From Actinomycetota bacterium (lineage in GTDB: Bacteria > Actinomycetota > UBA4738 > HRBIN12): a DNA stretch of 29,256 nt. Position numbers and translations under genes: made by a program. The notes under the pieces were generated by a model, which worked only from the letters and a program-made list of their open reading frames with translations, had not been told where the DNA came from and searched no databases. Positions 1-15,064 of this stretch are shown here, one piece after another; the first letter of the stretch is position 1; each line of letters begins with the position of its first letter. The DNA is taken from assembly GCA_046732015.1 (NCBI GenBank), contig JBKPMF010000091.1, positions 1 to 29,256 of the forward strand, written 5' to 3'.

Positions 1-1118
1 CTCACACGCTGGGAGAAGTCGGACAACAGCTCGTACGGGGTCGCGCGCGAGCCGTAGACCAACCGGTCGGCGATCCGCTGCGCGCCTCGGCGGACCGGCT
101 GGAAGGCCAGCGCCACCGCGGCGGCCGCCACCGCGGACAACACGGTGTTGCTCGCGGCGCCCGCGATCGTCCCCACGCCCACCACGATCCCCACGTACAC
201 GGCGGTGATGAAGGCGGCGAGCAACGCGAACACGACGGTCTTGCGGATCACCAGATCGAGGTCGTAGAGGCGGTACTTCAGCACCGCGATCCCGATCGCG
301 ATCGGCAGCAGGCCGAAGCTGGCCAGGCACAGGCCTTGCAGGGTCTGCACCCATCCGGGCGTCACCTGGCTGTCCCATCCCCAGGAGAACGAGACGACCA
401 ACGCCGTCGCGTACAGGACCCCGACGATCGCCGCGGCGACGGCGATCCATTTGATCTGTTGTCGGTCATCGCCGGTGGCCCGCCGGAACCGGATCACCAG
501 ACTCGCGACGGCGGCGACGACGCCGATAGGGATGACGAAGATCCCGACGGTGAGCCACTCCAGCGAGCTCACCGCGAAGGGGTTGAGCACCCCGGGGAAC
601 CCGTCGACGGCTCCGGGGGAGAACAGGATCCCGATCGATCCGGCGATCATGCCGGCGGCAAGGACGCGCGCGAACCACCGCCAGCGTGGCGACGGCAGGT
701 GACCATCGGGGAAGATCAGCAACAGGAACGTGGCCGGGAGGGCGACGGCGGGGATCCAGAGCCACGACGTCATGCCGGCGACCTCGGCGCCGAACGGTGC
801 ACTGGGGTGGACGTAGAGCGCCCATGCCGGATAGGCGCTCGAGAGGAGCCCGACACCGTTCGCCACCCCGATCCCGAGCAAGAGCCACCCCACCGCGTTC
901 TCGGGCCTGCGTGATGCGATCAGGACCCCGACGATCGAGAACATCTGGAACGACACCAGGAACAGGACGTCACCGACGCCGATCGAGGTCACCGACGGTT
1001 CCGACGATCCACCCGACATCAAGCTGAAGACGACCGCGACCAACGCGGTGCCGATGGCCACGGAGAACAGGAGCCAGGCCAGTCCCGCGCGGGAACGGTC
1101 AGGAGCCGTGGACGACAC
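1..1118 (-). CDS. Multi-TM sensor histidine kinase, N-terminal part (runs off the window edge); paralog of 3669..5942 and 5939..8002
   Basis: Not in the ORF track; translated by hand. GTG at 1118 follows GGAGGT and gives MSSTAPDRSRAGLAWLLFS...IASRRPENAVGWLLL...LLLIFPDGHLPSPRWRW...RFRRATGDDRQQIKW...KYRLYDLDLVIRKTVV...ADRLVYGSRATPYELLSDFSQRV. These motifs match the two complete kinases. The kinase domain lies outside the window, so it is inferred. Confidence 0.85.
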   Translation of the reverse strand, partial: MSSTAPDRSRAGLAWLLFSVAIGTALVAVVFSLMSGGSSEPSVTSIGVGDVLFLVSFQMFSIVGVLIASRRPENAVGWLLLGIGVANGVGLLSSAYPAWALYVHPSAPFGAEVAGMTSWLWIPAVALPATFLLLIFPDGHLPSPRWRWFARVLAAGMIAGSIGILFSPGAVDGFPGVLNPFAVSSLEWLTVGIFVIPIGVVAAVASLVIRFRRATGDDRQQIKWIAVAAAIVGVLYATALVVSFSWGWDSQVTPGWVQTLQGLCLASFGLLPIAIGIAVLKYRLYDLDLVIRKTVVFALLAAFITAVYVGIVVGVGTIAGAASNTVLSAVAAAAVALAFQPVRRGAQRIADRLVYGSRATPYELLSDFSQRV

Positions 1119-2382
1119 GGAACACCTCCACCGGTTCCTCGCGGCCCTTCACGTGCTTCGTGCCGATCGACTCACAGATGACGCCCGGCGCGGCGGCGAC
1201 GGTGCTGTCCGTCGCCACGATCTCGCCGCCGGCCGCTTCGTTCTGGAGCCGCGAGGCGATGTTGACCGCGTCTCCCACCACCGTGTACTCGAGCCGGCCG
1301 CCACCGCCCACAGTGCCGGCGATCACCTTGCCGGTGTTCACCCCGATCCCCACACCCATCTCTGGCAGATCGACGACCTCCCACCCGGCAGCATTGAGCT
1401 CCGCCTGTCGTTCCTGCATCGCGATGGCGCAGCGCAGCGCTCGTTCCGCGTGGTCGGGCAGGGGCTCGGGGGCGCCGAAGACCGCCATCACGGCATCGCC
1501 TTGGAACTTGTCGATCGTGCCGCCGTGTGCGGCGACCACCTCGGCCATCGCCTCGAGGTGTTTGCCGACGACCGAGGCGACCTCGCGAGCTTGCAGTCGT
1601 TCGGCGATCGTCGAGAACCCACGGATGTCGCTGAACAGGACCGTGACCACAACCTCTTGGGGCTCGATCGCCGTCTTCGGGTGTGAGGCCAGCTGCTCCG
1701 CGAGCTGCCGCGGGACGAACGACGCCAGCATGCGACGTGACTCGGTTTGCTCCACGACCGCCTCGTGCAAGCGCTTGAGCTCGTCGACCAGGCTGGTGCC
1801 GCCGCCGTCGCCCGCCATGGACCGGAACAGGTCGGTGACTTGGCGGTCGACCGCCTCCTGGGTCGTGCCGAGCGCCTCGGCGATCTCCGCGTAGCCGAAC
1901 CCCTTCGCCATCATGTCCAAGAGCTCGCGATCACGCTCCGCGGTCTCGCCCCGGCCGGACAACCGCTCGGCGATCGTGGGGTCGACGACGCTGCCTCCGG
2001 CGTGCACCTCGCGGATCGCACGCACGAGTTCATCGCCCTGTGCGATCCGGTCCTTCAGCAGGTAGGCGAGGCCGCTCTGCCCCTTGCCGAGCAGCGCGAT
2101 GGCGTACTCCTCGTCGTCGTGGGCGCTGAGGACGACCACCCCGGTGTCGGGGTGGCTGTCGCGGATCGAGTGCGCGCAGTCGATCCCTTCGAGCTGGAAG
2201 CTGGGTGGCATCTTGATGTCGGTGACCACGACATCGGGTTCGTGCTCGGCAGCCGTGGCGAGCAACGACGGGGCATCCTCGGCCACCCCCACGACCTCGA
2301 TGTCGTCGTAGGAGTCCAGCAGGGCTCGCACGCCCTCGCGCACCAACACGTTGTCCTCGCCGAGCACGACCTTGATGTTCAC
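1099..2382 (-). CDS. Receiver (NarL-type) + LuxR-like HTH + class III adenylate/guanylate cyclase fusion protein
   Basis: REC motifs: GEDN, VTDIKMPP (phospho-Asp), LSAH, LLKD. HTH: RDRELLDMMAKGFGYAEIAEALG. Cyclase: LFSDIRGFS, IDKFQGDAVMAVFGAP, GIGVNTG, EYTVVGDAVNIASRLQ. GTG start preceded by GGAAGG. Confidence 0.9.
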   Translation of the reverse strand: MNIKVVLGEDNVLVREGVRALLDSYDDIEVVGVAEDAPSLLATAAEHEPDVVVTDIKMPPSFQLEGIDCAHSIRDSHPDTGVVVLSAHDDEEYAIALLGKGQSGLAYLLKDRIAQGDELVRAIREVHAGGSVVDPTIAERLSGRGETAERDRELLDMMAKGFGYAEIAEALGTTQEAVDRQVTDLFRSMAGDGGGTSLVDELKRLHEAVVEQTESRRMLASFVPRQLAEQLASHPKTAIEPQEVVVTVLFSDIRGFSTIAERLQAREVASVVGKHLEAMAEVVAAHGGTIDKFQGDAVMAVFGAPEPLPDHAERALRCAIAMQERQAELNAAGWEVVDLPEMGVGIGVNTGKVIAGTVGGGGRLEYTVVGDAVNIASRLQNEAAGGEIVATDSTVAAAPGVICESIGTKHVKGREEPVEVFRVVHGS

Positions 2383-2414
2383 GCCGCTCGCCTTCCTGGC
2401 CGGGGGTGCACGTG

Positions 2415-2420
2415 TACCAT
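2415..2420 (+). promoter_or_regulatory. -10 element TACCAT, 6 nt before ATG 2427 (leaderless transcript)
   Basis: TACCAT-ccgcgc-ATG with no Shine-Dalgarno; matches the actinobacterial TANNNT consensus. Confidence 0.6.
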
Positions 2421-2426
2421 CCGCGC

Positions 2427-3095
2427 ATGATCAGAGTGGTGTTCGCGGAGGATAACTACCTCGTGCGCGAAGGAACAGCCGCGCTGCTGGCATCGGTCGA
2501 CACCGTGGAACTCGTGGGGACGGCCGAAACGCGCGACGAACTGCTCACCGCCGTCACCGAACTGGCTCCCGACGCGGTGCTGACCGACATCCGGATGCCG
2601 CCGACGAACAGCAACGAAGGCATCGAGGCGGCCAAGCTGATCCGCGAGACCCACCCGCAGATCGGCGTGGTCGTGCTCTCGCAGTTCGCGGACGAGGAGT
2701 ATGCCTACGAGCTGCTGAAGGACGGCGCCGCCGGGCTCGGCTACCTGCTGAAGGAACGCGTCGCCGATGTGGACGAACTCGTCCGCGCCCTCGAAGAGGT
2801 GGCTCGCGGGGGCAGCGTGCTCGACCCCAAGGTGGTCGAAGCGCTCGTCGCCGCCAAGGACCGGATGGCGCACTCCCCGCTGGCCTCCCTCACCGACCGC
2901 GAGCGCGAGGTCCTCTCGCACATGGCGCAGGGCCAGAACAACGCCGCGATCGCGAAGTCGCTCTTCCTCACCGAACGCGCCGTCGAGAAGCACATCAACT
3001 CCCTGTTCCACAAGCTGGACCTCACGGAGGAACCCGATGTGCACCGCCGCGTGATGGCCGTGCTCGCGTTCCTCCGTGAGACCGATCAGCCCTAG
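2427..3095 (+). CDS. NarL/LuxR-family DNA-binding response regulator
   Basis: MIRVVFAEDN, LTDIRMPP, YLLKERV, LTDREREVLSHMAQGQNNAAIAKSLFLTERAVEKHINSLFHKL. Start moved from the ORF-track 2406 to ATG 2427. Confidence 0.93.
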   Translation: MIRVVFAEDNYLVREGTAALLASVDTVELVGTAETRDELLTAVTELAPDAVLTDIRMPPTNSNEGIEAAKLIRETHPQIGVVVLSQFADEEYAYELLKDGAAGLGYLLKERVADVDELVRALEEVARGGSVLDPKVVEALVAAKDRMAHSPLASLTDREREVLSHMAQGQNNAAIAKSLFLTERAVEKHINSLFHKLDLTEEPDVHRRVMAVLAFLRETDQP

Positions 3096-3097
3096 CG

Positions 3098-3505
3098 TCA
3101 CTGAGCTCTCCGCGTGTCCACGATGAACACGCTGCACGGGGCGTGGCGCAGGACGAGGTTCGGGACGCTGTCCTTGACGCGCCACCAGCTCCCGTGGACG
3201 CCTCGGTTGCCCACCACGATCGTGTCGGCGTGCTCCTCGGCCGCGACCTCGACGATGCGCTCGGCGGCGTCGCCCGTCTCGGTCCGTGTCCGGGTCGCCA
3301 GGCCGGGGAAGCGCTCCCCCATCCTGGCGAGGTAGCCGGAAGGGTCCGCGGACTTCGCTGGATCCACCACCGTGCGGAGGTCGCCGTCCTTGCGGACGTA
3401 GAGCACGAGGAGCTCGGCTCCCCTCGCATGGGCCAGGGCGGCGGCGTCTTCCACCGCGAGATCGGCCGAGGCCGTGGTGTCGGTGCCTACCAGGATGGTC
3501 GTCAT
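3098..3505 (-). CDS. Universal stress protein (single USP domain)
   Basis: TILVGTD...ADTIVVGNRG...SVPNLVLRHAPCSVFIV; AAGGAG upstream. Confidence 0.9.
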   Translation of the reverse strand: MTTILVGTDTTASADLAVEDAAALAHARGAELLVLYVRKDGDLRTVVDPAKSADPSGYLARMGERFPGLATRTRTETGDAAERIVEVAAEEHADTIVVGNRGVHGSWWRVKDSVPNLVLRHAPCSVFIVDTRRAQ

Positions 3506-3542
3506 CGTGGGTCATCTCCTTCGGGCGGTTGTCTGCGATCTC

Positions 3543-3548
3543 ACCGTA
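3543..3548 (-). promoter_or_regulatory. Putative -10 element TACGGT for the USP gene
   Basis: TANNNT match about 38 nt upstream of the start. The same ccTACGGTg context occurs upstream of the receiver gene at 8454..8459. Confidence 0.4.
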
Positions 3549-3653
3549 GGCCCCCTGACCTGCGACGACGACCCGGCCGCCACCACGGTTGGCGGGGGTG
3601 GAGGCACCTGGCGAAGTGGTGGCGTTCTCCCCCTGGCCCTGGGTGGACGCGGA

Positions 3654-3662
3654 TGCGACCAT
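3654..3662 (+). promoter_or_regulatory. Extended -10 TGc-GACCAT, 6 nt before ATG 3669 (leaderless)
   Basis: TGCGACCATCCGGGCATG, nearly identical to TACCATCCGCGCATG at 2415. Confidence 0.45.
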
Positions 3663-3668
3663 CCGGGC

Positions 3669-5942
3669 ATGGAGGGAACCGCCAGACCTGAGGTGTCCCG
3701 AAGTGATCGTCCGCCCACGGGCTCACGCACGGCGCGAACGATCGCCATCGTCGCGATCGTGCTGTGCGCCGGCGCCTCGATAGCGGCATTCGCGCTCAGA
3801 GCGATCGCTCCGCCCGACCCGTCGCCAGCGACGATCGTCGTGATCGGCGACCCCACGGCGGATCGTGTCCAAGAGGTCAGGAAAGCCTCTGAGGCCTTGA
3901 TCGCCGACGGAGCGCGATTCGGCCAGACCCAGACGAGCACGGTGATCGGTCTTGTCGCGGTACTCCTCGCCTGCTTGGGCTGGATGGCGGTCGGCGCCCT
4001 GATCGTCTCGAAACAGCCCCGGAACTGGGCGGGATGGATCTTCTTGGCGATCGGTGCGACCCTTCCCTTGGCGAACCTGTTCCAGGTGTTGGTCTTCGTC
4101 GGCGCGCGTCGAGATCCCGGCTCGATCCCCTTCCTTGGCTTGATCGCCTTCGTCGGCTTCTACCTGATCTTCCCCATCGCTCTGCTCCCGCTGCTGTTCC
4201 TCCTCTACCCGGACGGTCATGTGCCGAGTCCGGGATGGCGATGGGCCGTCCGTGGCCTGCTCGGTGGCACCGGTCTGGCGATCCTCGGCTACGTCGTCTC
4301 CCCCGGCCCGCTCAACTCCTACATCTCGGACGGGGTTCTCTACGTCAACCCCATTGGGATCGACGGCGCCGCCCCCGTGGCCAACGCGTTGATCACCGCC
4401 GGCACGATCGTCGCCCAGATCTCCGCCTTCGCCCCGGCGATCGCGATCCGCCAGCGCTACCGCCGATCCACCGGAACCCTGCGGGAGCAGATGCGGCTGT
4501 TGGTGCTCGTTGCGGCGACCGCCGGGACGATGCTGCTCCTTGGGTTCATCGGCACCTTCGTCGGAGCACTCCTCGGCAACGACCAGGAGACGCCGCCGTT
4601 CTTCTTGGTGCTCTTCGCGTTCCTGGTCCTGACGTTGTTGGTCGGGGTGCCGGGCGCCTACCTCGTCGCGATCTTCCGTCACGGCCTGTGGGACATGGGC
4701 CTGGTGATCCGCAAGACGGTCCAGTACGGCGTGCTGGTGGTCGCCTTCATGGTGCTTGGATTCGTCATCGTGGCCGTCGTGCCGACCTTGCTGATCGGCG
4801 TCGGCGGCACGGACTACGTGGCGACGGTCATCATCGCGGCGTTCCTCGCCGGGTCCTTCCTCTGGCTGCGACCCCGCGCGACCCGCTTCGCCAACCGGCT
4901 GGTCTACGGACGGCGCGCCACCCCGTACGAGGTGCTCTCGGAGTTCAGCGAACGCGTCGGGGAGACCTACTCCACCGACGACGTCCTGCCACGGATGGCG
5001 CATCTACTCGTGCAGGCCACAGGAGCACGTCGTGCCGACGTGTGGTTGCGCGTCGGTTCCGAGCTGCGCTGTGAGGCGAGGTGGCCCACCGACGTCGAGC
5101 CACCGGCGAGCCGACTCATCCGCGGGGACGAGATCACGGGACCGCACGATGACTACCTCGCCGAGGTCCGCCACCAGGACGAACTCCTGGGTGCGATCAC
5201 CCTCGACCTCCCGGCGGATGATCCGATGAACACGTCCAAGGAGGCGCTGGTTCGCGACCTCGCCGCCCAGGCGGGGCTCGTCCTTCGCAACGTTCGATTG
5301 ATCGAGGAGTTGCGCGCGTCACGTCAGCGGTTGGTGGCGGCCCAGGACGAGGAACGCCGCAAGCTCGAACGGAACATCCACGACGGTGTGCAGCAGCAGC
5401 TCGTGGCGCTCACGGTGCAGCTTCGGCTCGCCGAGCAGCTCACGGATCGCGATCCGGCCAAGGCGCGCGAGCTCATGGCGACGCTCCAAGGTCGGACGAA
5501 CGAAGCGCTGGAGGATCTGCGAGACCTGGCCCGCGGGATCTATCCACCGCTGCTGGCGGACAAAGGCCTCACCACAGCGCTCGAGGCGCAGGGCCGGAAG
5601 TCGCCGGTGCCGGTCACGGTCCAGGCGGACGGGATCACGCGCTACCCGCAGGCGGTCGAGTCCGCGGTCTACTTCTCGTGCTTGGAGGCGCTCAATAACG
5701 TGGCGAAGTACGCGGAGGCCGAACACGTGACGATCACCCTGGCGCGCATGGACGGTTCGCTCGCCTTCGACATCACCGACGACGGTCGCGGCTTCGACAC
5801 GGAGGTGACCACGCACGGCACCGGCCTGCAGGGCATCGCCGACCGGCTCGACGCGCTCGGAGGCACGATGCGGATCGAGAGCGCGGCCGGCGAGGGCACG
5901 TCTCTGCACGGGACCGTGCCCGCCGCCGAAGGGCAGCGATGA
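3669..5942 (+). CDS. Multi-TM sensor histidine kinase (TM region - GAF-like - HisKA_3 - HATPase)
   Basis: Many hydrophobic segments; H-box ERRKLERNIHDGVQQQL; EALNNVAKYA, DDGRGFD, GTGLQGIADRL. Start moved from 3474 to ATG 3669. Confidence 0.92.
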   Translation: MEGTARPEVSRSDRPPTGSRTARTIAIVAIVLCAGASIAAFALRAIAPPDPSPATIVVIGDPTADRVQEVRKASEALIADGARFGQTQTSTVIGLVAVLLACLGWMAVGALIVSKQPRNWAGWIFLAIGATLPLANLFQVLVFVGARRDPGSIPFLGLIAFVGFYLIFPIALLPLLFLLYPDGHVPSPGWRWAVRGLLGGTGLAILGYVVSPGPLNSYISDGVLYVNPIGIDGAAPVANALITAGTIVAQISAFAPAIAIRQRYRRSTGTLREQMRLLVLVAATAGTMLLLGFIGTFVGALLGNDQETPPFFLVLFAFLVLTLLVGVPGAYLVAIFRHGLWDMGLVIRKTVQYGVLVVAFMVLGFVIVAVVPTLLIGVGGTDYVATVIIAAFLAGSFLWLRPRATRFANRLVYGRRATPYEVLSEFSERVGETYSTDDVLPRMAHLLVQATGARRADVWLRVGSELRCEARWPTDVEPPASRLIRGDEITGPHDDYLAEVRHQDELLGAITLDLPADDPMNTSKEALVRDLAAQAGLVLRNVRLIEELRASRQRLVAAQDEERRKLERNIHDGVQQQLVALTVQLRLAEQLTDRDPAKARELMATLQGRTNEALEDLRDLARGIYPPLLADKGLTTALEAQGRKSPVPVTVQADGITRYPQAVESAVYFSCLEALNNVAKYAEAEHVTITLARMDGSLAFDITDDGRGFDTEVTTHGTGLQGIADRLDALGGTMRIESAAGEGTSLHGTVPAAEGQR

Positions 5943-8002
5943 ACGAGGCCCGACCGCTGCGATGGCCCTGGGCGATCTCGGTCGCCGCGATCCTCGTGCT
6001 CACCGCGGCGATCGTGCTGACGATCGTCAACGACACGTTCGGCCTGTTCGTGGTGGTCGCCGCGATGATGGTGACGGGGTACGGCATCGTCGGCGCCTTC
6101 CTGGCCACGCGCGTACCGCGCAACCCCATCGGCTGGCTGATGCTCGTCATGGCTGCCTCGTTCGCGGTCGTCGGGGTGGCGGACGAGTACCTCACGTACA
6201 CGCTCAAGACCAACCCCGGAGCCCTGCCGTTGCCAGAGGTGGCCGCATGGCTCAACGGCTTCGTCTTCTACGGGGTCTTCATCCCGCTGCTGGTGATCCT
6301 GCTCCTGTTCCCCACCGGGACCCTGTTGTCGTCCCGATGGCGCATCGTGCTCATCGCGGTCCTGACGAGCGGCGGCCTCCTGATCGCGTCGGCGATCCTG
6401 AAGCCGGGTCTCTACACCGACTTCCCCACGATCACCAACCCCACCGGGATCGAGGGCCTCCGGTCGATCACCGTGGTGTTCGACTGGGTCGGGGGGCCGT
6501 TGCTCATCCTCGGGGCCATCGGCTCCGTGGCTGCCGTGGTGGTCCGCTACCGCCGTGCCGCCGGCGACGAACGACAGCAGATCGCGCTGCTGGCATGGGT
6601 GGCTGCGACCGCGATCGTGATCCTGACCCTGGGGCTGACGCTGCAGTCCGTCTTCCCCGTCGTGGGCTCGATCGGGTTCACGGCACTGTTCGCGGTGATC
6701 GGCATCGGAGTCCCGCTGGCGATCCAGAACGCGGTGATGCGTCATCGTCTCTACGACCTCGACGTCGTGATCAAGAAGACGGTGGTATTCGCGATCGTCG
6801 TCGTGCTGCTGGTGGGGGTGGGTGGGGTCATCGCCGTGCTCGTCGGCGTCGGTATCGTCCCCTCGTTGTCCGACTCGCCGGCGCTCATGCTCTTCCTCGG
6901 CCTGGCGTACGGGTTGATGGTCGCTCCGGCATACCGGCTCGCGTCTCGTATCGCCGACCGGGTCGTGTACGGCGGCCGGGCCAGCCCGTCCGAGGTGCTC
7001 AGCGAGTTCTCCGAACGGCTTTCGGAGACCTACGCCACCGACGACGTGCTGCCCCGGATGGCCGCGATCGTGGGTGGAGCCACCCGGGCGAAGGACGTCC
7101 GCGTCTGGCTGCGTGTGAGCGGGGTGTACCGGGTGGCGGCGACCTGGCCCTCCGACCTGCCGCCCGAGGATCCCGTCGCCGACCCCGGGAAGACGTTGCC
7201 GCGATTCCCGGACGACGGCCATCGCACGGAGGTGCGAGACCGCGGCGAGCTGCTGGGGGCGATCACAGCGTCGTTCCACGCCAACGATCCGATCGACCCC
7301 GCGCGGGAACGGCTGATCCGCGACATGGCCGCCCAAGCCGGCTTGGTTTTGCGCAACGTGGGATTGATCGAGAACCTCCGTGCGTCCCGCCAGCGGATGG
7401 TCGCCGCCCAGGACGAGGGTCGGCGCCGCCTCGAACGCAACATCCACGACGGCGCGCAACAACAGCTGGTCGCACTGTCGGTCAAGACCAGGCTGGCCGA
7501 CACGTTGATCGACCGCGACACCACGAAGGCGCACGAGATGCTGGCCCAGATCCAAGCGGACACGAACGACGCGCTGGAGACCCTGCGCGACCTGGCACGC
7601 GGGATCTACCCGCCGCTGCTCGCTGACAAGGGCCTGGCGACGGCACTTGCCGCGCAGGGACGCAAGGTCGCCGTGCCGGTGCGCCTGGACGCCGACGGCA
7701 TCGGGCGCTATCCGGCTGAGGCGGAGGCGACCGTGTATTTCTGCGTGCTCGAAGCCATGCAGAACGTGTCGAAGTACGCGCAGGCATCGGGGATCGAGCT
7801 TCAGCTGCGGACGTCAAACGGCTCGCTGACCTTCGAGGTTCGCGACGACGGGGTGGGCTTCGATCCAGAGACGTACACGCCGGGCACGGGGATCCAGGGG
7901 ATGCAGGACCGGCTGGATGCGGTCGGCGGCTCGCTGCAGGTGACCTCCGCCCCCGGGATCGGCACCGTCGTGTTCGGGATCGTGCCGATCTCACCGACAT
8001 GA
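5939..8002 (+). CDS. Multi-TM sensor histidine kinase (TM region - GAF-like - HisKA_3 - HATPase)
   Basis: H-box RRRLERNIHDGAQQQL; EAMQNVSKYA, DDGVGFD, GTGIQGMQDRL; ATGA overlap with the upstream kinase. Confidence 0.92.
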   Translation: MNEARPLRWPWAISVAAILVLTAAIVLTIVNDTFGLFVVVAAMMVTGYGIVGAFLATRVPRNPIGWLMLVMAASFAVVGVADEYLTYTLKTNPGALPLPEVAAWLNGFVFYGVFIPLLVILLLFPTGTLLSSRWRIVLIAVLTSGGLLIASAILKPGLYTDFPTITNPTGIEGLRSITVVFDWVGGPLLILGAIGSVAAVVVRYRRAAGDERQQIALLAWVAATAIVILTLGLTLQSVFPVVGSIGFTALFAVIGIGVPLAIQNAVMRHRLYDLDVVIKKTVVFAIVVVLLVGVGGVIAVLVGVGIVPSLSDSPALMLFLGLAYGLMVAPAYRLASRIADRVVYGGRASPSEVLSEFSERLSETYATDDVLPRMAAIVGGATRAKDVRVWLRVSGVYRVAATWPSDLPPEDPVADPGKTLPRFPDDGHRTEVRDRGELLGAITASFHANDPIDPARERLIRDMAAQAGLVLRNVGLIENLRASRQRMVAAQDEGRRRLERNIHDGAQQQLVALSVKTRLADTLIDRDTTKAHEMLAQIQADTNDALETLRDLARGIYPPLLADKGLATALAAQGRKVAVPVRLDADGIGRYPAEAEATVYFCVLEAMQNVSKYAQASGIELQLRTSNGSLTFEVRDDGVGFDPETYTPGTGIQGMQDRLDAVGGSLQVTSAPGIGTVVFGIVPISPT

Positions 8003-9667: not shown

Positions 9668-9719
9668 GCGCGAAGGTGCGACCGCCCGGCCGGATGCCGA
9701 GACGACTAGGGTTGACCCG

Positions 9720-9725
9720 GACCAT
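9720..9725 (+). promoter_or_regulatory. Putative -10 GACCAT, 7 nt before ATG 9733
   Basis: GACCATCCGGTCCATG; same pattern as 2415 and 3657; overlapped by the GGACC-atcc-GGTCC inverted repeat. Confidence 0.35.
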
Positions 9726-9732
9726 CCGGTCC

Positions 9733-12546
9733 ATGGGGACGTGGCGAGGCGCGGCGATGACCGGCGACCAACCGATCGGACGTGAGGACGAACTCGCTGC
9801 GATCATGTCGTTCGTCCAGGCGGCCCCCACCGGACCGGCCGGCATGGTCATCAGCGGCTCGGCGGGGATCGGCAAGACCATCCTGTGGCTCCAAGGCGTC
9901 TCGATCGCCGGGGCAGCGGGTACCGATGTCCTGACGAGCCGCCCGAGGCAAGCGGAGACGGCGTTCGCCTTCGCCGCCCTCGCCGATCTGCTGAACGAAC
10001 GCTTCGAGCATGTGGCCGGTCAGCTCCCGGCCCCGCAGCGCCGCGCGTTGGAGGTCGCATTGCTCCGCGCGGAGGGCGACGACCGCGGCCCGGACCGTCA
10101 CGCCGTTTCCGTGGCGGTCTTGAGTGCGCTGCGGTTGCTCGCGGACGAGCGACCGGTGCTGCTCGCGATCGATGACGTGCAATGGATCGACCCGCCCTCG
10201 GCGCACGCCTTGTCGTTCGTCCTGCGTCGTCTGGAGGCCGAGGCCGTCTCGGTGCTCACGACCCTGCGGGTCACCGAAGGGATCCCCGATCCCTTGGACC
10301 TCGAGACGTCGCTGGGTGAGCGTCTGACCCGGCTGGACGTGGGACCGCTCCCTTTGGACGTGTTCACGCGGTTGATCCATGAACGCACCGACGGGCGCTT
10401 CTCCCGGCCGATCCTGGTCAAGATCCACGAGGCCTCGGGCGGCAACCCGTTGTTCGGCCTCGAGATCGTGCGGGCGATGCGATCGGTCGACGGGGAGCCG
10501 CCGCCGGGAGAACCGCTCCCGGTCCCCGACGACCTGGGCAACCTGCTCCACGATCGCATCGGGTCGGTCCCGCCCGAGACGCAGGATGTCCTGCTCCTGG
10601 CGTCGGCCACCTCCAGTCCCACGGTCGAGCTCCTTCGTGAGTCGGGAGGTTCCGGCGACGATCGCCTGGGGCCCGCCGAAGCGGCAGGGATCGTCCGCGT
10701 CCTCAGCACCGGTGAGGTCGAGTTCACGCACCCACTCCTCGCTTCCGCCGTCTACGGGCAGGCGACCTCGGCGTGGCGGCGGGACGCGCACGCTCGACTC
10801 GCTCGGACGATCGCCGACCCCGAGGAGCGCGCTCGCCACCTCGCACTGTCCTCCTCCGCGCCAGATCCCGAGGTAGCCGGTGCCCTCGACACGGCGGCGA
10901 TCCACGCCTCGAAGCGTGGCGCTCCCTGGACCGCTGCCGAGCTCGAGGAACTCGCCCTGCGGTTGACCCCCGACCACGACACGGCGATGCACCGGCAACG
11001 GTCACTGCACACCTCGGAGTACCGATTCCAAGCGGGGGACGCGGGAGCGGCACGGCGAGCGGCCGACGACGCCCTGCGTGCCTCGACGTCCGGCCCCGAG
11101 CGGGCCGAGGTCCTCTACCTGTTGTCGGGCTTCGGTTGGAACGACCTCACGGAGATCCGGCCCCTCCTGGAGCAGGCGGTCGCCGAGTCGGACGGCGCTC
11201 CCGATCTCATGGCATCCGCGATGGCGGATCTGGGATGGATCGAGATCGTCGGCGGTGATCTCAAGGTCGCGGCGCGTCATGCCCGACGTGCGATCGAGCT
11301 CGCGGGAACCGGCGGCGATCCCGGCCCGCGATCGCTCGCGCTCATCACCACCGCCTATGCCGAATTCATGCTCGGCATCGACGCGTCGTCGCTCCTGGCC
11401 GAGGCCCAGGAACTCGAGGACCCACAGGCCGACCGGCAGATGCTCTCGTACCTGCTCACCAACTCGCTCAATACGCTGGGGGCCCAGCGGATGTGGTCGG
11501 GAGACCTCGAGGGCGGCCGGCAGATCCTGGAGCGCGCGCACACCGATGTGGTGGAGCGAGGTCGGTACCTCCTGCTGTGGGAGATGCTCGTCTACCTGTC
11601 GGAGTTGGAGACCCGCGCCGGAGCGTTCGCTCGTGGTCTTGACTATGCCGAGGAGCTGCTCGAGACGCTGGCGGAAGCTGGGTACGACCAAGCCCGCGAG
11701 CTGGGACTGTGGGCTCGCTCGCTGGCGGAGGCGCATCTCGGCATGGTGGAAGCGGCGCGGGCCGATGCCACCGAAGGGCTCGCCCTGGCCGAACGCCACC
11801 GCGACCTCTTCCACGTGATCACGAATCGATCCGTGCTCGGATTCCTCGAACTGTCGCTCGGCGACCCAGCCGCGGCCCATCGCTGGCTCGAACCGCTTCC
11901 GGACCTGCTCGCCGCTCGCAACATCGTCGAACCGGGGATCTACCCCGTCGTACCGGACGCGGTCGAAGCACTCATCGGCATCGGAGAGATCGACCGGGCT
12001 GAGGAGGTGCTCGAACCCTTCCAGGCCTGGAGCGAGAAGCTCGACCGTCCCCTGACGCTCGCAACCGCCGCGCGGAGCCGGGGATCGATCGCAGCCGCGC
12101 GCGGTGATCTTCCCGCTGCGCTGGCGTACGTCGAGGACGCGGTCGCTCGCCACGCCCGCGTGAGCCAACCGTTCGAGCTCGCACGCACCACCTTGGCCTT
12201 CGGGGATATCCAGCGGCGCGCGAAACAGAAGCGAGCCGCCGCGGCGTCCCTGCGATCGGCCCTGTCGATGTTCGAGGCGCTGGGCGCACCGCTCTGGGCG
12301 GCCAAGGCCCGGGCCTCACTGGCGCGGATCAGCGGCCGGACCGCCACCGTCGGCCTCACCGAGAGCGAGCGGCAGACGGTGGTCCTGGCGATCGAGGGCC
12401 GGACCAACCGTGAGATCGCCGAGTCGATGTTCGTGAGCGTCCGCACCGTCGAGGCGAACCTGTCCAGGGCGTACGCGAAGTTGGGGGTGGGCTCACGCCG
12501 CGAGCTGCGGGTCGACCTGTTGCCCCCTGCGCCGCAAGAGCCCTAG
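9733..12546 (+). CDS. Large ATP-binding LuxR-family (AAA ATPase - TPR-like - HTH) transcriptional regulator
   Basis: IGREDEL, Walker A GSAGIGKT, Walker B LLAIDDVQW, SGGNPLF, C-terminal LTESERQTVVLAIEGRTNREIAESMFVSVRTVEANLSRAYAKLG. Start is ATG 9733 or ATG 9757. Confidence 0.9.
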   Translation: MGTWRGAAMTGDQPIGREDELAAIMSFVQAAPTGPAGMVISGSAGIGKTILWLQGVSIAGAAGTDVLTSRPRQAETAFAFAALADLLNERFEHVAGQLPAPQRRALEVALLRAEGDDRGPDRHAVSVAVLSALRLLADERPVLLAIDDVQWIDPPSAHALSFVLRRLEAEAVSVLTTLRVTEGIPDPLDLETSLGERLTRLDVGPLPLDVFTRLIHERTDGRFSRPILVKIHEASGGNPLFGLEIVRAMRSVDGEPPPGEPLPVPDDLGNLLHDRIGSVPPETQDVLLLASATSSPTVELLRESGGSGDDRLGPAEAAGIVRVLSTGEVEFTHPLLASAVYGQATSAWRRDAHARLARTIADPEERARHLALSSSAPDPEVAGALDTAAIHASKRGAPWTAAELEELALRLTPDHDTAMHRQRSLHTSEYRFQAGDAGAARRAADDALRASTSGPERAEVLYLLSGFGWNDLTEIRPLLEQAVAESDGAPDLMASAMADLGWIEIVGGDLKVAARHARRAIELAGTGGDPGPRSLALITTAYAEFMLGIDASSLLAEAQELEDPQADRQMLSYLLTNSLNTLGAQRMWSGDLEGGRQILERAHTDVVERGRYLLLWEMLVYLSELETRAGAFARGLDYAEELLETLAEAGYDQARELGLWARSLAEAHLGMVEAARADATEGLALAERHRDLFHVITNRSVLGFLELSLGDPAAAHRWLEPLPDLLAARNIVEPGIYPVVPDAVEALIGIGEIDRAEEVLEPFQAWSEKLDRPLTLATAARSRGSIAAARGDLPAALAYVEDAVARHARVSQPFELARTTLAFGDIQRRAKQKRAAAASLRSALSMFEALGAPLWAAKARASLARISGRTATVGLTESERQTVVLAIEGRTNREIAESMFVSVRTVEANLSRAYAKLGVGSRRELRVDLLPPAPQEP

Positions 12547-13039: not shown

Positions 13040-15064
13040 CTACGCCGACGGTGGCCCCAGGTCGTCGCGATCGGCCAGCACCTTCTCCACCGCGGCCCTC
13101 ACGTCTTCGAACACCTCGTCGGGCGTTCGGTCGGCGTCGATCACCACGAACCGCTCGGGGTGTTCCTCGGCGATCTTCAGGTAGGCATCGGACACCTTGG
13201 CGTGGAAATCCTGGCCTTCGAGCTCCATGCGGTCCGGCGCCTCGGTCGAGCGCAGCAATCCGCGCTCGGGTTCGAGGTGGAGCAGGATCACCAGGTCGGC
13301 GAACAACCCCTGCGTGGCCCACACGTTGAGGGTGAGCACGTCCTGTTCCCCCAGGCCGCGGGCCCACCCCTGGTAGGCGAGCGAAGAATCGACGTACCGG
13401 TCGCAGATCACGATCGAGCCGTCGGCGAGTGCGGGGCGGATCACGGTCGAGACCGTCTGGGCACGAGCGGCGGAGAAGAGGAGGGCTTCGCTCCGGGCAT
13501 CGAGCTTGCCGGTCTTCGGGTCGAGCAGGACCTCGCGGATCTTCTCACCCAGCTCGGTCCCGCCGGGTTCGCGGGTCACGAGCACGTCGTGCCCTTCGGC
13601 TCGCAGGTGCTCCGCGGCAAGCCGGATCTGCGTGCCCTTGCCCGCCCCTTCGACGCCCTCGAAGGCGATGAACAGCCCGGTGGCCGGCGGCCGCTTCAGC
13701 TTCGGCACGAGCGCGAGGGGCTGGGGTCGGGAGAGGCGATGCCGCTTGAGCAGCCTCCGCGTGTTGACACCGGCGGCCGCGGCGAGCGCGCCGGCGGTCC
13801 ACAGTGCGAGTCGAGGGCCGGGTGGATCGTAGACCTGGCCGTTGAACGTGAATGGTCGGTCATAGATGCTCGACAGGATAGGGAAGATGGTGAGGCTCAT
13901 GAACAGACCCAACCGGGACAGGGTCGTGAGCGAGGCGAACGTCCGTCCTCGGAACTCGTCCTCGACGTTCTCCTGGAGCAGGGTGTAACCGCTCACCCAA
14001 GCCAGGCCGCAGAAGGCGCCGAGCCACACCGAGACGACCGCGGTGAGCGCCAGGCTCGGCATGGCAGCCAGCACGAACAGCGTGGCCGCGGCCGCGAGCA
14101 ACGCCCACACGAAGGCGATGTCGCGCTCCACGAACTTGTTGACCTGACTCGCCGTCGCCATCCCCAGGAACATCCCGACGCCGAACGCAGTGACCACCAC
14201 GCCCCACGCGGCCTGGTTGTTGTCGAGGCTGCTCACGAAGATCGGGCCCAGCGCGAGCACCGCCCCCACCGCGGCGAACGCCACCACGATCCCTCCGGTC
14301 ATGGCCGAGGCGATCGAGTCCTCGCGCAGGAATCGCACGCCGTCGACGATGTCGTGCCACACCTTGCTCAGATCGAACCGGCCGGTGAGCCCGTGCACCG
14401 GCGCGGGGAACGCGATGCGGCTCACCATGAACGCCGAGAACCCGAACGTGCAGGCGTCCAACAGCAGGGCGAGCGTCTCGGGGCGGTCGCCCAGGAACGG
14501 CACCCACTGCCCCACGCTCTGGCTGATCCACGTCAGCACGGCGAACACCGCGCCTCCCAGCGGCAGCGTGGCGTACGTGCTCACCAGGCCCAGCGAGTTC
14601 GCGTTCGCGAGCTGACGCCTGGGCACCATGTTCGGCAGGGAGGCATCGCGCGCCGGGGTCCACAGCAGGGAGAGGCATTCGATCGCGAACGACAGCAGGA
14701 AGATCGCCCACAGTTCGCCCATGAAGGCCATGACGGCGTACATCACGCCCCGGCCGAGGTCGGCGATGATCATGATCTGCTTGCGGTCCACCCGGTCGAC
14801 CAGCGCTCCCGCGATCGGACCGAACAGGATCGCGGGAAGCATGCGCGCGATCATCACGGCGCTGATCGCGAAGCCCGCCCTCGCCACCGAACCCGACAGC
14901 GTGGTCACCAGCGACGTGACCGCCACGAACCCCACCCAGTCGCCGAGCGAGGAGATGCTCATGGCGGCGAGCAGCCGCGAGAACGCCGGATGGGTGAGGA
15001 GGTCCTTCAGCGTGGCCGCACGGGTTCCGCGGAGTGCCGCGACCTCGTCGGCGACGGAAGCCAC
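13040..15064 (-). CDS. tmk: MFS transporter - thymidylate kinase fusion
   Basis: N-terminal MFS (ISSLGDWV, GALVDRVDRK, RGRTFA); C-terminal FIAFEGVEGAGKGTQ, VTREPGG, ICDRYVDSSLAYQG. GGAGG upstream. Confidence 0.92.
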   Translation of the reverse strand: MASVADEVAALRGTRAATLKDLLTHPAFSRLLAAMSISSLGDWVGFVAVTSLVTTLSGSVARAGFAISAVMIARMLPAILFGPIAGALVDRVDRKQIMIIADLGRGVMYAVMAFMGELWAIFLLSFAIECLSLLWTPARDASLPNMVPRRQLANANSLGLVSTYATLPLGGAVFAVLTWISQSVGQWVPFLGDRPETLALLLDACTFGFSAFMVSRIAFPAPVHGLTGRFDLSKVWHDIVDGVRFLREDSIASAMTGGIVVAFAAVGAVLALGPIFVSSLDNNQAAWGVVVTAFGVGMFLGMATASQVNKFVERDIAFVWALLAAAATLFVLAAMPSLALTAVVSVWLGAFCGLAWVSGYTLLQENVEDEFRGRTFASLTTLSRLGLFMSLTIFPILSSIYDRPFTFNGQVYDPPGPRLALWTAGALAAAAGVNTRRLLKRHRLSRPQPLALVPKLKRPPATGLFIAFEGVEGAGKGTQIRLAAEHLRAEGHDVLVTREPGGTELGEKIREVLLDPKTGKLDARSEALLFSAARAQTVSTVIRPALADGSIVICDRYVDSSLAYQGWARGLGEQDVLTLNVWATQGLFADLVILLHLEPERGLLRSTEAPDRMELEGQDFHAKVSDAYLKIAEEHPERFVVIDADRTPDEVFEDVRAAVEKVLADRDDLGPPSA

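What the first reader, a model, noticed from the sequence alone, without database searches (positions are those of the whole stretch)
1099..2382. Receiver-LuxR HTH-class III cyclase fusion with a full catalytic set
Seen: an intact receiver (acidic pocket GED, phospho-Asp in TDIK, Ser, Lys), a LuxR-like HTH, a short helical linker, and a cyclase with both metal Asp (FSDI, QGDA), Lys (IDK), Thr (EYTV), and Asn/Arg (VNIASR). Established: Lys plus Asp/Thr at these positions indicates ATP specificity in class III cyclases, and receiver-cyclase fusions exist. A complete NarL-type REC+HTH placed before a cyclase is unusual. Inference: a phosphorylation-gated adenylate cyclase that may also bind DNA.
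Basis: partly seen in the sequence, partly recalled or inferred. Interest (0 to 1): 0.8.

Follow-up and report, generated by a model that had tools for sequence, protein, structure and literature searches.

The report
Receiver-regulated adenylate cyclase, relic HTH
This gene encodes a two-component response regulator whose output is a complete cAMP-making enzyme, joined through a worn-down but still conserved remnant of a DNA-binding domain. The family is common in uncultured soil Actinomycetota, no study of it was found, and it is a new variant of a known design.

Summary
Window 1099-2382 (minus strand) is an intact 427-codon gene. It has a receiver domain with every phospho-acceptor residue, a LuxR/NarL-derived helix-turn-helix, a long helix ending in a cyclase-transducer-like segment, and a class IIIb cyclase with the full Asp/Asp/Lys/Thr/Asn/Arg set.

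Two points of the interpretation need correcting.
- **The HTH is not a complete NarL module.** It scores 17.5 bits on Pfam GerE (cut-off 23.5). Sequence homology is confident only through the third helix. The residues invariant in canonical paralogs are replaced, and the domain is acidic. DNA binding is therefore unlikely. It is nevertheless under purifying selection (dN/dS 0.30, like the cyclase).
- **The architecture is not rare.** Full-length relatives were found in all 18 other same-genus genomes searched and in at least 75 species-level genomes (Actinomycetota MAGs, Acidimicrobiia, Jiangella, a few Dormibacterota/Chloroflexi). I found no study of the family.

Best reading: a homodimeric adenylate cyclase gated by phosphorylation of Asp55 from the co-transcribed multi-pass HisKA_3 kinase, with the signal passing through the relic HTH and a coiled coil. 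This scan has already found the family on other DNA several times. It is a new variant of a known kind, of moderate interest.

The parts
1993..2382 (-). Receiver (REC) domain, residues 1-130. Acidic pocket E9/D10, phospho-acceptor D55 (codon 2218-2220), S86, K110.
   Evidence: Pfam Response_reg E 7e-17. These residues are invariant in 76 family members. dN/dS 0.14.
1948..1992 (-). Interdomain linker helix (alpha6 equivalent), residues 131-145, with the conserved GGSxxDPxI motif.
   Evidence: Aligns to the NarL/VraR linker. AF2 helix 135-141.
1813..1947 (-). Relic LuxR-type helix-turn-helix, residues 146-190 (three helices: 146-159, 164-171, 175-190).
   Evidence: GerE 17.5 bits, below the 23.5 cut-off. 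hhalign to canonical paralog C-terminal domains gives probability 96.7. Fold match to DosR has Z 8.4, rmsd 1.7 over 50 residues. Net charge is -4.7 against +0.4 in canonical paralogs, and the conserved R/E-K-H/N-S residues are lost. dN/dS 0.30.
1798..1812 (-). Gly-rich loop, residues 191-195 (GDGGG).
   Evidence: Low conservation, and dN/dS about 0.9 over residues 191-197. Loop in the AF2 model.
1663..1797 (-). Long signalling helix (196-222, predicted parallel coiled coil, conserved L205-H206) followed by a cyclase-transducer-like segment (LASFVPRQLAEQL, 218-233).
   Evidence: AF2 helices 196-222 and 225-233. The dimer model has symmetric contacts 209:209 and 219:219. The fold match including this helix is to 6fht, bPAC and OaPAC linker-cyclase structures. 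The start of the helix aligns to alpha10 of NarL, DosR and GerE C-terminal domains.
1102..1662 (-). Class IIIb nucleotidyl cyclase catalytic domain, residues 241-427: D252, D296 (metal), K292 (codon 1507-1509), T367 (codon 1282-1284), N374, R378, K412.
   Evidence: Pfam Guanylate_cyc E 1e-24. PDB sequence hits: Cya2 2e-33, CyaB 1.5e-31, CyaC 2.5e-24. Foldseek TM 0.90 to CyaB.
3..1118 (-). Downstream gene on the same strand: N-terminal multi-pass membrane part of a histidine kinase, cut off by the contig end. Its longest frame overlaps the cyclase stop by 20 nt. This is the presumed cognate kinase.
   Evidence: ORF list and junction sequence. It is paralogous to the full-length HisKA_3 kinases at 3474-5942 and 5939-8002. 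A kinase of this family follows the cyclase gene in most clade A loci.
2427..3095 (+). Divergent canonical NarL-type response regulator, 44 nt from the cyclase start if the ATG at 2427 is used. It is 51% identical to residues 3-189 of the fusion.
   Evidence: Pfam Response_reg plus GerE at 55.5 bits. 51% identity. Conserved head-to-head in all clade A loci.
3098..3505 (-). Universal stress protein (single Usp domain, 135 aa), a conserved member of the cluster in clade A.
   Evidence: Pfam Usp E 8e-22. Synteny. The only PDB sequence hits are the cAMP-binding USPs 5ahw and 1tq8.
3474..8002 (+). Two tandem paralogous multi-pass HisKA_3/HATPase_c histidine kinases (3474-5942 and 5939-8002; the start of the first is uncertain).
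   Evidence: Pfam. Conserved upstream of the regulator pair in clade A loci.

Best explanation
The gene encodes a homodimeric class IIIb adenylate cyclase that serves as the output of a two-component system. A multi-pass HisKA_3 histidine kinase, most likely the one encoded immediately downstream, phosphorylates Asp55 of the N-terminal receiver. The resulting change in the receiver passes through a folded, conserved remnant of a NarL-type HTH domain that probably no longer binds DNA. From there it enters a parallel coiled coil that starts where the HTH's dimerisation helix (alpha10) used to be, and ends in a cyclase-transducer-like segment. That segment sets the relative position of the two catalytic domains, each of which supplies half of two symmetric ATP sites (K292 from one chain, T367 from the other), and so changes cAMP output. 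Shown here: the domain anatomy, the residue set, family conservation, purifying selection on each part, synteny with kinases, and a predicted dimer. Inferred: phosphotransfer from the neighbouring kinase, ATP rather than GTP as substrate, the direction of regulation (I favour activation by phosphorylation, about 60:40), and loss of DNA binding.
For: - **Domains and catalytic residues:**. K292 and T367 match the Lys/Thr of the solved adenylate cyclases CyaC and CyaB, whereas the guanylate cyclase Cya2 has Glu/Gly at these positions.
- **Receiver:** the D-D-S-K residues are invariant in 76 members, and the receiver has the lowest dN/dS, 0.14.
- **Relic HTH:** GerE scores 17.5 bits against 55.5 in the neighbouring paralog. 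Seven residues that are invariant or nearly so in 46 canonical paralogs (R176, E179, K180, H181, N183, S184, K188) are largely replaced. Net charge is -4.7 against +0.4. The tri-helical fold is retained (DosR Z 8.4, rmsd 1.7 over 50 residues), and dN/dS is 0.30 against 0.27 for the cyclase and about 0.9 for the Gly loop.
- **Linker:** the long helix plus the following segment superpose on linker-CTE-cyclase structures 6fht, bPAC and OaPAC. The CTE concept is taken from PMC5995499.
- **Homodimer model:** score 0.73, best of 3 controls 0.00. The mark was reached by 20 of 30 proteins solved as pairs of one chain and 1 of 23 solved as single chains. Runs agree in at least 93% of contacts, and pLDDT is 81. 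The interface runs along 198-225 and is head-to-tail in the cyclase domain. Solved cyclase homodimers exist, so this pass may reflect likeness to them.
- **Operon and synteny:** the kinase frame overlaps the cyclase stop, and a kinase of the same family follows the gene in most clade A loci and many clade B loci.
- **Age and retention:** the fusion's REC-HTH modules sit on one side of a branch with 99% support against canonical regulators. The gene is present in all 18 other same-genus genomes searched.
- **Downstream signalling:** the genome has at least 14 cNMP-binding domains to read cAMP.
Against: - There is no biochemical evidence for any member, and I found no paper on this architecture.
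- The confident interface of the dimer model does not include the receivers, so the model says nothing about how phosphorylation is transmitted.
- Clade A's recognition helix (AVDR(Q/R)VTDLF) still resembles its canonical paralog's AVEKHINSLF in character (D for E, R for K, Q for H). Residual DNA binding in this clade therefore cannot be ruled out.
- Most of the wider family (clade B and two clade A members) has Gln in place of Lys292. Substrate choice in the family is thus not uniformly canonical, although this protein has the canonical pair.
- Three paralogous kinases and two regulators lie in the cluster, so the cognate kinase is not settled.
- dS is about 0.8 and the pairs are not independent, so the dN/dS values are rough.
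Confidence: 0.72

Rival explanations
1. Bifunctional regulator: the HTH still binds DNA, so the protein is both a transcription factor and a cyclase. It might, for example, make cAMP at a promoter, or DNA binding might compete with cyclase activation.
For: - The HTH fold is retained and under purifying selection.
- In clade A the recognition helix keeps an acid-base-polar triplet (D179-R180-Q/R181) that parallels E-K-H of the canonical paralog.
- The gene lies head to head with that paralog across only 44 nt, so a shared operator is conceivable.
Against: - GerE scores below the cut-off in clade A and is almost undetectable in clade B (12 bits or no hit).
- R176, H181, N183 and S184 are invariant or nearly so in 46 canonical paralogs and are not kept. 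Clade B has Ala or Asp at 179-181 and Glu at 183.
- The HTH has a net charge of -4.7.
- The alpha10 position is occupied by a helix committed to a parallel coiled coil. That geometry differs from the alpha10-mediated arrangement of LuxR-type domains on DNA, which I know from the NarL and DosR C-terminal domain-DNA structures and did not test here.
Confidence: 0.1
2. A phosphorylation-independent cyclase: the receiver is an atypical or pseudo-receiver used only for dimerisation or as a docking site, and activity is set by something else such as bicarbonate/CO2, as in other class IIIb enzymes.
For: - Class IIIb enzymes with Thr at the T367 position are known to respond to bicarbonate (own knowledge, not tested here).
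- The dimer model shows no receiver contacts.
- Atypical NarL-family receivers exist in Actinobacteria, for example BldM and WhiI (PMC4125116, listed).
Against: - All five phospho-chemistry residues (E/D9, D10, D55, S86, K110) are invariant in 76 members.
- The receiver is the most constrained part of the protein (dN/dS 0.14).
- The gene is followed by, and often overlaps, a histidine kinase gene.
Confidence: 0.08
3. The cyclase makes a product other than cAMP (cGMP or another cyclic nucleotide), or is catalytically silent and acts as a nucleotide sensor.
For: - The best PDB sequence hit is the guanylate cyclase Cya2.
- Most family members carry Gln instead of Lys292. According to the text read, a Gln-Asn pair goes with mixed AC/GC activity in Rv0386.
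Against: - This protein has Lys292 and Thr367, identical to the ATP-specific CyaC and CyaB. Cya2 has Glu and Gly at these positions.
- All metal-binding and transition-state residues are present and invariant.
Confidence: 0.07

Closest known systems
Receiver-regulated class IIIb adenylate cyclase CyaC of Spirulina/Anabaena (structures 1wc0, 1wc1)
   Same: A class IIIb catalytic domain with the same Asp/Asp/Lys/Thr/Asn/Arg set. A receiver domain sits N-terminal to the cyclase. Activation by phosphotransfer was reported by Kasahara and Ohmori 1999, which I saw only as a reference inside PMC1183210.
   Different: By my own knowledge, CyaC is a hybrid protein (receiver, kinase, receiver, cyclase) with no HTH-derived module. 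Here a stand-alone NarL-type regulator has been extended: REC, relic HTH, coiled coil, cyclase. Identity in the cyclase domain is only about 32%.
NarL/FixJ (LuxR-type) response regulators: VraR, NarL, DosR, DesR and the neighbouring gene at 2427-3095
   Same: The receiver plus linker plus first three HTH helices align end to end (VraR E 2.5e-15, NarL 7e-14). Identity to the neighbouring paralog is 51%. They share receiver signatures (TDI(K/R)MPP, AYLLKDR).
   Different: GerE is below threshold. The conserved DNA-reading residues are replaced. The domain is acidic. Alpha10 is remodelled into a coiled coil. A cyclase is added at the C-terminus.
Sensor, coiled coil, CTE, cyclase photoreceptors and chimeras (bPAC, OaPAC, phytochrome-Cya2 chimera 6fht)
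   Same: A long helix, a short helix and the cyclase core superpose (238-247 aligned columns). A dimeric parallel coiled coil feeds the cyclase dimer. The signal-transmission logic is described in PMC5995499.
   Different: The input is a phospho-receiver acting through an HTH remnant, not a BLUF or phytochrome module. The CTE motif here is LASF/LSRL rather than FGRY.
Mycobacterial cyclase-LuxR proteins Rv0386, Rv1358 and Rv2488c
   Same: They contain both a class III cyclase domain and a LuxR-type HTH in one actinobacterial protein (PMC3466318).
   Different: The domain order is reversed and the architecture differs: cyclase at the N-terminus, then ATPase/TPR, then a bona fide HTH at the C-terminus. 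There is no receiver, the proteins are about 1,000-1,100 aa, and the cyclase is class IIIc.

Membership tests
Class III nucleotidyl cyclase, subclass IIIb adenylate cyclase | Cyclase homology domain above the curated threshold | tested here: met
   PF00211 scores 87.6 bits against a 21.9 cut-off. Foldseek TM 0.90 and rmsd 1.9 to CyaB 3r5g.
Class III nucleotidyl cyclase, subclass IIIb adenylate cyclase | Two metal-binding Asp plus transition-state Asn and Arg | tested here: met
   D252, D296, N374 and R378 align to those of CyaC and CyaB. They are invariant in 76 members.
Class III nucleotidyl cyclase, subclass IIIb adenylate cyclase | Substrate-specifying Lys, with Thr (not Asp) at the second position | tested here: met
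   K292 and T367 match CyaC and CyaB, whereas Cya2 has E and G. Most wider-family members have Q at 292.
Class III nucleotidyl cyclase, subclass IIIb adenylate cyclase | Head-to-tail homodimer with active sites at the interface | tested here: inconclusive
   The model supports it: score 0.73, best of 3 controls 0.00. The mark was reached by 20 of 30 proteins solved as pairs of one chain and 1 of 23 solved as single chains. Contact agreement is at least 93% and pLDDT is 81. K292/F293 touch E365/T367 of the other chain. This may reflect memory of solved cyclase dimers, and it is a prediction, not a measurement.
Class III nucleotidyl cyclase, subclass IIIb adenylate cyclase | cAMP synthesis; bicarbonate response | not testable with these tools
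   Needs an enzyme assay.
NarL/FixJ-type DNA-binding response regulator | Receiver with a conserved phospho-acceptor pocket | tested here: met
   PF00072 scores 62 bits. E9, D10, D55, S86 and K110 are invariant.
NarL/FixJ-type DNA-binding response regulator | GerE/LuxR-type HTH domain above the curated threshold | tested here: not met
   17.5 bits against a 23.5 cut-off, covering profile positions 5-42 of 57. The neighbouring paralog scores 55.5 bits. Clade B members score 12 bits or nothing. None of the 120 closest homologs carries PF00196 in the precomputed Pfam.
NarL/FixJ-type DNA-binding response regulator | Four-helix C-terminal domain with a free alpha10 | tested here: inconclusive
   Helices 7-9 match DosR and DesR (Z 8.1-8.4 over 50 residues). 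Some C-terminal domains (NarL 1je8, GerE 1fse, DosR 1zlk) align on into the first turns of the long helix. Sequence homology is confident only through alpha9. The Z values are middling for a small helical domain.
NarL/FixJ-type DNA-binding response regulator | Recognition-helix residues conserved in DNA-binding paralogs | tested here: not met
   Canonical paralogs have R176 (44/46), E179, K180 and H181 (46/46 each), N183 (42/46), S184 (44/46) and K188 (46/46). The fusion has E176, D179, R180, Q181, T183, D184 and S188. Clade B has mostly A/D/E at these positions.
NarL/FixJ-type DNA-binding response regulator | Sequence-specific DNA binding | not testable with these tools
   Needs EMSA or DAP-seq.
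Mycobacterial CHD-ATPase-TPR-LuxR cyclases (Rv0386 type) | Cyclase at the N-terminus, NB-ARC/AAA and TPR in the middle, GerE HTH at the C-terminus | tested here: not met
   The domain order here is REC, HTH, cyclase. There is no ATPase or TPR, and the protein has 427 aa.

The most novel reading that the evidence does not exclude
In the query's clade, the HTH remnant might still recognise DNA, perhaps in the 44-nt region it shares with its canonical paralog. The recognition helix there keeps a D-R-Q/R triplet parallel to the paralog's E-K-H. The protein would then be a DNA-tethered, phosphorylation-gated adenylate cyclase that couples a promoter site to local cAMP synthesis. A milder form of this idea is that the relic HTH acts as the receiver's docking latch, NarL-style, and the conserved neighbouring Usp is the dedicated cAMP receiver of the module.
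Probability: 0.1. Interest if true: 0.75.

Novelty: new variant of a known kind. Interest (0 to 1): 0.42.

Why it matters
Receiver-regulated cyclases and NarL-type regulators are both textbook. A regulator that kept its DNA-binding fold only as a mechanical link to a new enzymatic output is a clear natural example of how output domains get swapped. The HTH is retained under selection across two clades that are only about 45% identical overall. Its alpha10 position is taken over by the start of a coiled coil. Together these make a testable case that a former DNA-binding domain can be exapted as an allosteric transmitter. In practical terms, this family links two-component sensing to cAMP in abundant, uncultured soil Actinomycetota whose genomes of about 3 Mb carry around 20 cyclases. 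It also offers a compact, soluble, 427-residue phospho-switchable cyclase for biochemistry. It does not open a new category of system.

Tried and rejected
- **Literature.** Five full-text searches and four papers read found no description of a REC-HTH-cyclase protein. The 2012 actinobacterial LuxR census lists only the CHD+LuxR proteins of Mycobacterium. Most subscription-journal papers are not in the library, so absence there is not proof.
- **'Recent duplicate of the neighbour'.** Rejected. The fusion and canonical REC-HTH modules split on a branch with 99% support, and the neighbour is only 51% identical.
- **'HTH is a decaying spacer'.** Rejected. Its dN/dS is 0.30, like the cyclase, whereas the Gly loop is at about 0.9.
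- **Representative search at the 50% cluster level.** Only about four clean full-length clusters appeared (P0122, P0126, P0127, P0130). Several other 'representatives' (P0140, P0156, P0160, P0200) are frameshifted reads and were dropped.
- **Expression.** RNA-library contigs from two rhizosphere metatranscriptomes and one soil metatranscriptome cover parts of the gene at about 90-96% identity. One 161-nt contig spans the cyclase-kinase junction. These come from relatives, DNA carry-over cannot be excluded, and contigs cannot show a single transcript. I do not count this as evidence of expression or of an operon.
- **Receiver contacts in the dimer.** The model did not place the receivers in a confident interface, so nothing can be said about receiver dimerisation.
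- **Intramolecular REC-HTH packing.** The tools return no coordinates, so I could not inspect it.
- **Usp as cAMP receptor.** This remains a lead only (see Noticed in passing).
Full report
**What is there.** On the minus strand, a 427-codon frame runs from GTG at 2382 to TGA at 1099-1101. Pfam finds a receiver at residues 6-110 (E 7e-17) and a class III cyclase domain at 245-417 (E 1e-24). Between them only a sub-threshold HTH signal appears (Sigma70_r4_2, E 6e-4), and GerE is not reported at E 0.01. NCBIfam models of NarL-type regulators (MctR, MadR, NarL) align from residue 3 to about 190 and stop 15-25 positions short of their own ends. The window is the first 29 kb of a contig from a 2.58-Mb MAG in 321 contigs, 83% complete, about 69% G+C.

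**The cyclase.** The closest solved sequences are Synechocystis Cya2 (E 2e-33), P. aeruginosa CyaB (1.5e-31) and Spirulina CyaC (2.5e-24). Residue by residue:
- D252 (FSDI) and D296 (GDA) are the metal aspartates.
- K292 (IDKF) and T367 (EYTV) fall on the Lys/Thr of the adenylate cyclases CyaC and CyaB. The guanylate cyclase Cya2 has Glu and Gly at these positions.
- N374 and R378 (VNIASR) are the transition-state pair.

The AlphaFold model has mean pLDDT 81.7. Its cyclase part superposes on CyaB with TM 0.90 and rmsd 1.9 Å. With the preceding helices included, it superposes on linker-CTE-cyclase structures (6fht, bPAC, OaPAC) over 238-247 columns.

**The receiver.** E9/D10, D55, S86 and K110 are present. 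They are invariant in 76 full-length family members taken from species-level genomes. This is the most constrained part of the protein, with dN/dS 0.14.

**The HTH is a relic, not a complete NarL module.**
- Residues 149-187 align to helices 7-9 of VraR and NarL. A profile of the family's middle region matches the C-terminal domains of canonical paralogs with probability 96.7, but confidently only through helix 9.
- Scanned on its own, the segment scores 17.5 bits on GerE (cut-off 23.5), covering profile positions 5-42 of 57. The regulator next door scores 55.5 bits. More distant family members score 12 bits or nothing. None of the 120 closest database homologs carries PF00196.
- In 46 canonical paralogs from related loci the recognition helix is almost invariant: R176, E179, K180, H181, N183, S184, K188. 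The fusion has E, D, R, Q, T, D, S at these positions. The larger clade B mostly has Ala, Asp or Glu.
- The HTH's net charge averages -4.7 in clade A and -2.9 in clade B, against +0.4 in canonical paralogs.
- After helix 9 comes a Gly-rich loop (GDGGG) and then a 27-residue helix (196-222) with a conserved L205-H206.
- A separate model of residues 128-240 matches LuxR-type C-terminal domains: DosR Z 8.4 and rmsd 1.7 over 50 residues, DesR Z 8.1. Several C-terminal domains (NarL-DNA 1je8, GerE 1fse, DosR-DNA 1zlk) align on into the first turns of the long helix. The alpha10 position is therefore occupied, but by the start of the signalling helix. These Z values are middling for a small helical domain, so I treat this as consistent with the reading, not decisive.
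- The relic is not decaying. Pairwise dN/dS in clade A is 0.30 for the HTH, 0.27 for the cyclase, 0.46 for the coiled coil plus CTE, and about 0.9 for the Gly loop. This is rough: dS is about 0.8 and the pairs are not independent.

**Dimer.** A two-copy prediction scored 0.73, against 0.00 for the best of 3 controls. That mark was reached by 20 of 30 proteins solved as pairs of one chain and by 1 of 23 solved as single chains. The runs agree in at least 93% of contacts, and pLDDT is 81. The interface has these parts:
- a parallel coiled coil along 198-225, with symmetric contacts 209:209 and 219:219
- the CTE-like segment
- a head-to-tail cyclase dimer in which K292/F293 of one chain meet E365/T367 of the other
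- a few HTH residues (158-161, 189-190)

The receivers are not in the confident interface. Because cyclase homodimers have been solved, the pass may reflect likeness to them. It shows compatibility, not binding.

**How common, how old.**
- The protein database search returned more than 7,500 hits. The top 120 are 81-98% identical, 416-433 aa long, and come from 'Actinomycetota bacterium' MAGs. JGI names them 'class 3 adenylate cyclase/DNA-binding NarL/FixJ family response regulator'.
- A scan of one genome per species hit its 80-locus limit. Of these, 75 encode the full architecture. Sources include Actinomycetota MAGs, Acidimicrobiia (Microthrixaceae, Ilumatobacteraceae), Nocardioidaceae, Streptosporangiaceae, Nitriliruptorales, the cultured Jiangella ureilytica and J. 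muralis, and a few Dormibacterota/Chloroflexi MAGs.
- Full or split copies were found in all 18 other same-genus genomes searched and in 7 of the 12 other genomes of the order.
- Two clades exist. Clade A is at least 65% identical to the query. It keeps TIDKF (Lys292), except L019 and L026, which have Gln. Clade B is about 45% identical, has 52 members, and carries TVMQF (Gln292) with Thr or Ser at position 367.
- In a tree of REC-HTH modules, the 77 fusion rows and the 47 canonical regulator rows fall on opposite sides of one branch (SH-aLRT 99). A single old fusion is therefore not ruled out. The gene is not a recent copy of its neighbour, to which it is 51% identical.

**Context.**
- In the window, the kinase frame downstream overlaps the cyclase stop by 20 nt. 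The contig end cuts it off after 372 residues of multi-pass membrane domain.
- Head to head, 44 nt away, lies the canonical NarL-type paralog. Next come a Usp gene and two tandem paralogous HisKA_3 kinases.
- The arrangement kinase(s), Usp, canonical regulator, cyclase regulator, kinase recurs in nearly all clade A loci. Clade B loci are more varied, but many have a kinase of the same family immediately downstream.
- The genome carries about 20 cyclase domains and at least 14 cNMP-binding domains.
- Near-identical DNA occurs in soil and rhizosphere metagenomes from several studies.

**Mechanism proposed.** The steps below are inferred from the anatomy and from what is known of the parts. None has been shown directly.
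1. Phosphotransfer from a cluster kinase to D55 changes the receiver.
2. The change passes through the folded HTH remnant into the coiled coil and CTE.
3. This re-sets the cyclase dimer and cAMP output.

I favour activation on phosphorylation, by analogy with CyaC and with dimerisation-driven receiver outputs, but only at about 60:40.

**Comparison and novelty.** The protein works like the receiver-regulated class IIIb cyclase CyaC and like coiled-coil/CTE-coupled cyclases. By descent it is a NarL-family regulator, but it fails two defining tests of a DNA-binding family member: the GerE threshold and the conserved recognition residues. It is unrelated in architecture to the mycobacterial cyclase-LuxR proteins. 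I found no paper on it. Earlier passes of this scan reached the same reading on other genomes. I reproduced the main points independently and added the per-domain selection analysis, the paralog-referenced residue comparison, the dimer prediction and the alpha10 mapping.

**Verdict.** This is a new variant of a known kind, of moderate interest.

Noticed in passing
window 3098-3505 (-): The single-domain Usp that is conserved in the clade A cluster has only two PDB sequence hits at E below 1e-5. Both are the mycobacterial cAMP-binding USPs, MSMEG_3811 (5ahw, solved with cAMP) and Rv1636 (1tq8). The two glycines reported to contact cAMP (G10 and G114 in MSMEG_3811, PMC11107214) are conserved as G7 and G99. 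The last Gly of the GxxGx9G(S/T) motif is Asp here. Usp could be a cAMP (or ATP) binder paired with the cyclase. [quoted passage not shown]
   Followed up: partly
L034-L088 (clade B loci); also L019 and L026: Most members of the wider family have Gln instead of the substrate-specifying Lys (TVMQF against TIDKF), with Thr or Ser kept at the second position. This is a non-canonical pair. According to the papers read, a Gln-Asn pair in Rv0386 goes with mixed AC/GC activity. The nucleotide specificity of clade B is open.
   Followed up: partly
window 3-1118 (-), 3474-5942 (+), 5939-8002 (+): Three paralogous histidine kinases share a large multi-pass N-terminal membrane domain with no Pfam match, followed by HisKA_3 and HATPase_c. 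Arrays of such kinases flank the regulator pair in related genomes. The signal they sense is unknown.
   Followed up: partly
window 2383-2426: Only 44 nt separate the divergent start codons of the cyclase regulator (GTG 2382) and the canonical regulator (ATG 2427). Both promoters must overlap or lie inside the genes, or the transcripts are leaderless.
   Followed up: no
P0127 (561 aa): One distant family representative carries an extra C-terminal receiver domain after the cyclase (REC, relic HTH, cyclase, REC).
   Followed up: no
window 9676-12546 (+): A large AAA_16, TPR, GerE (LuxR-type) regulator of 956 aa lies 1.7 kb beyond the kinase pair. The genome also has several cyclase ORFs of about 1,000-1,275 aa, which may be cyclase-ATPase-TPR proteins of the Rv0386 kind.
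   Followed up: no
window 13040-15064 (-): An MFS transporter domain and a thymidylate kinase domain appear in one 673-aa open frame. This may be a fusion, or two genes read through by the ORF caller.
   Followed up: no
G009, G015, G016; L032: In a few relatives the gene appears split into two frames at different places. These genomes are in few contigs. The splits could be assembly frameshifts or real pseudogenes.
   Followed up: no
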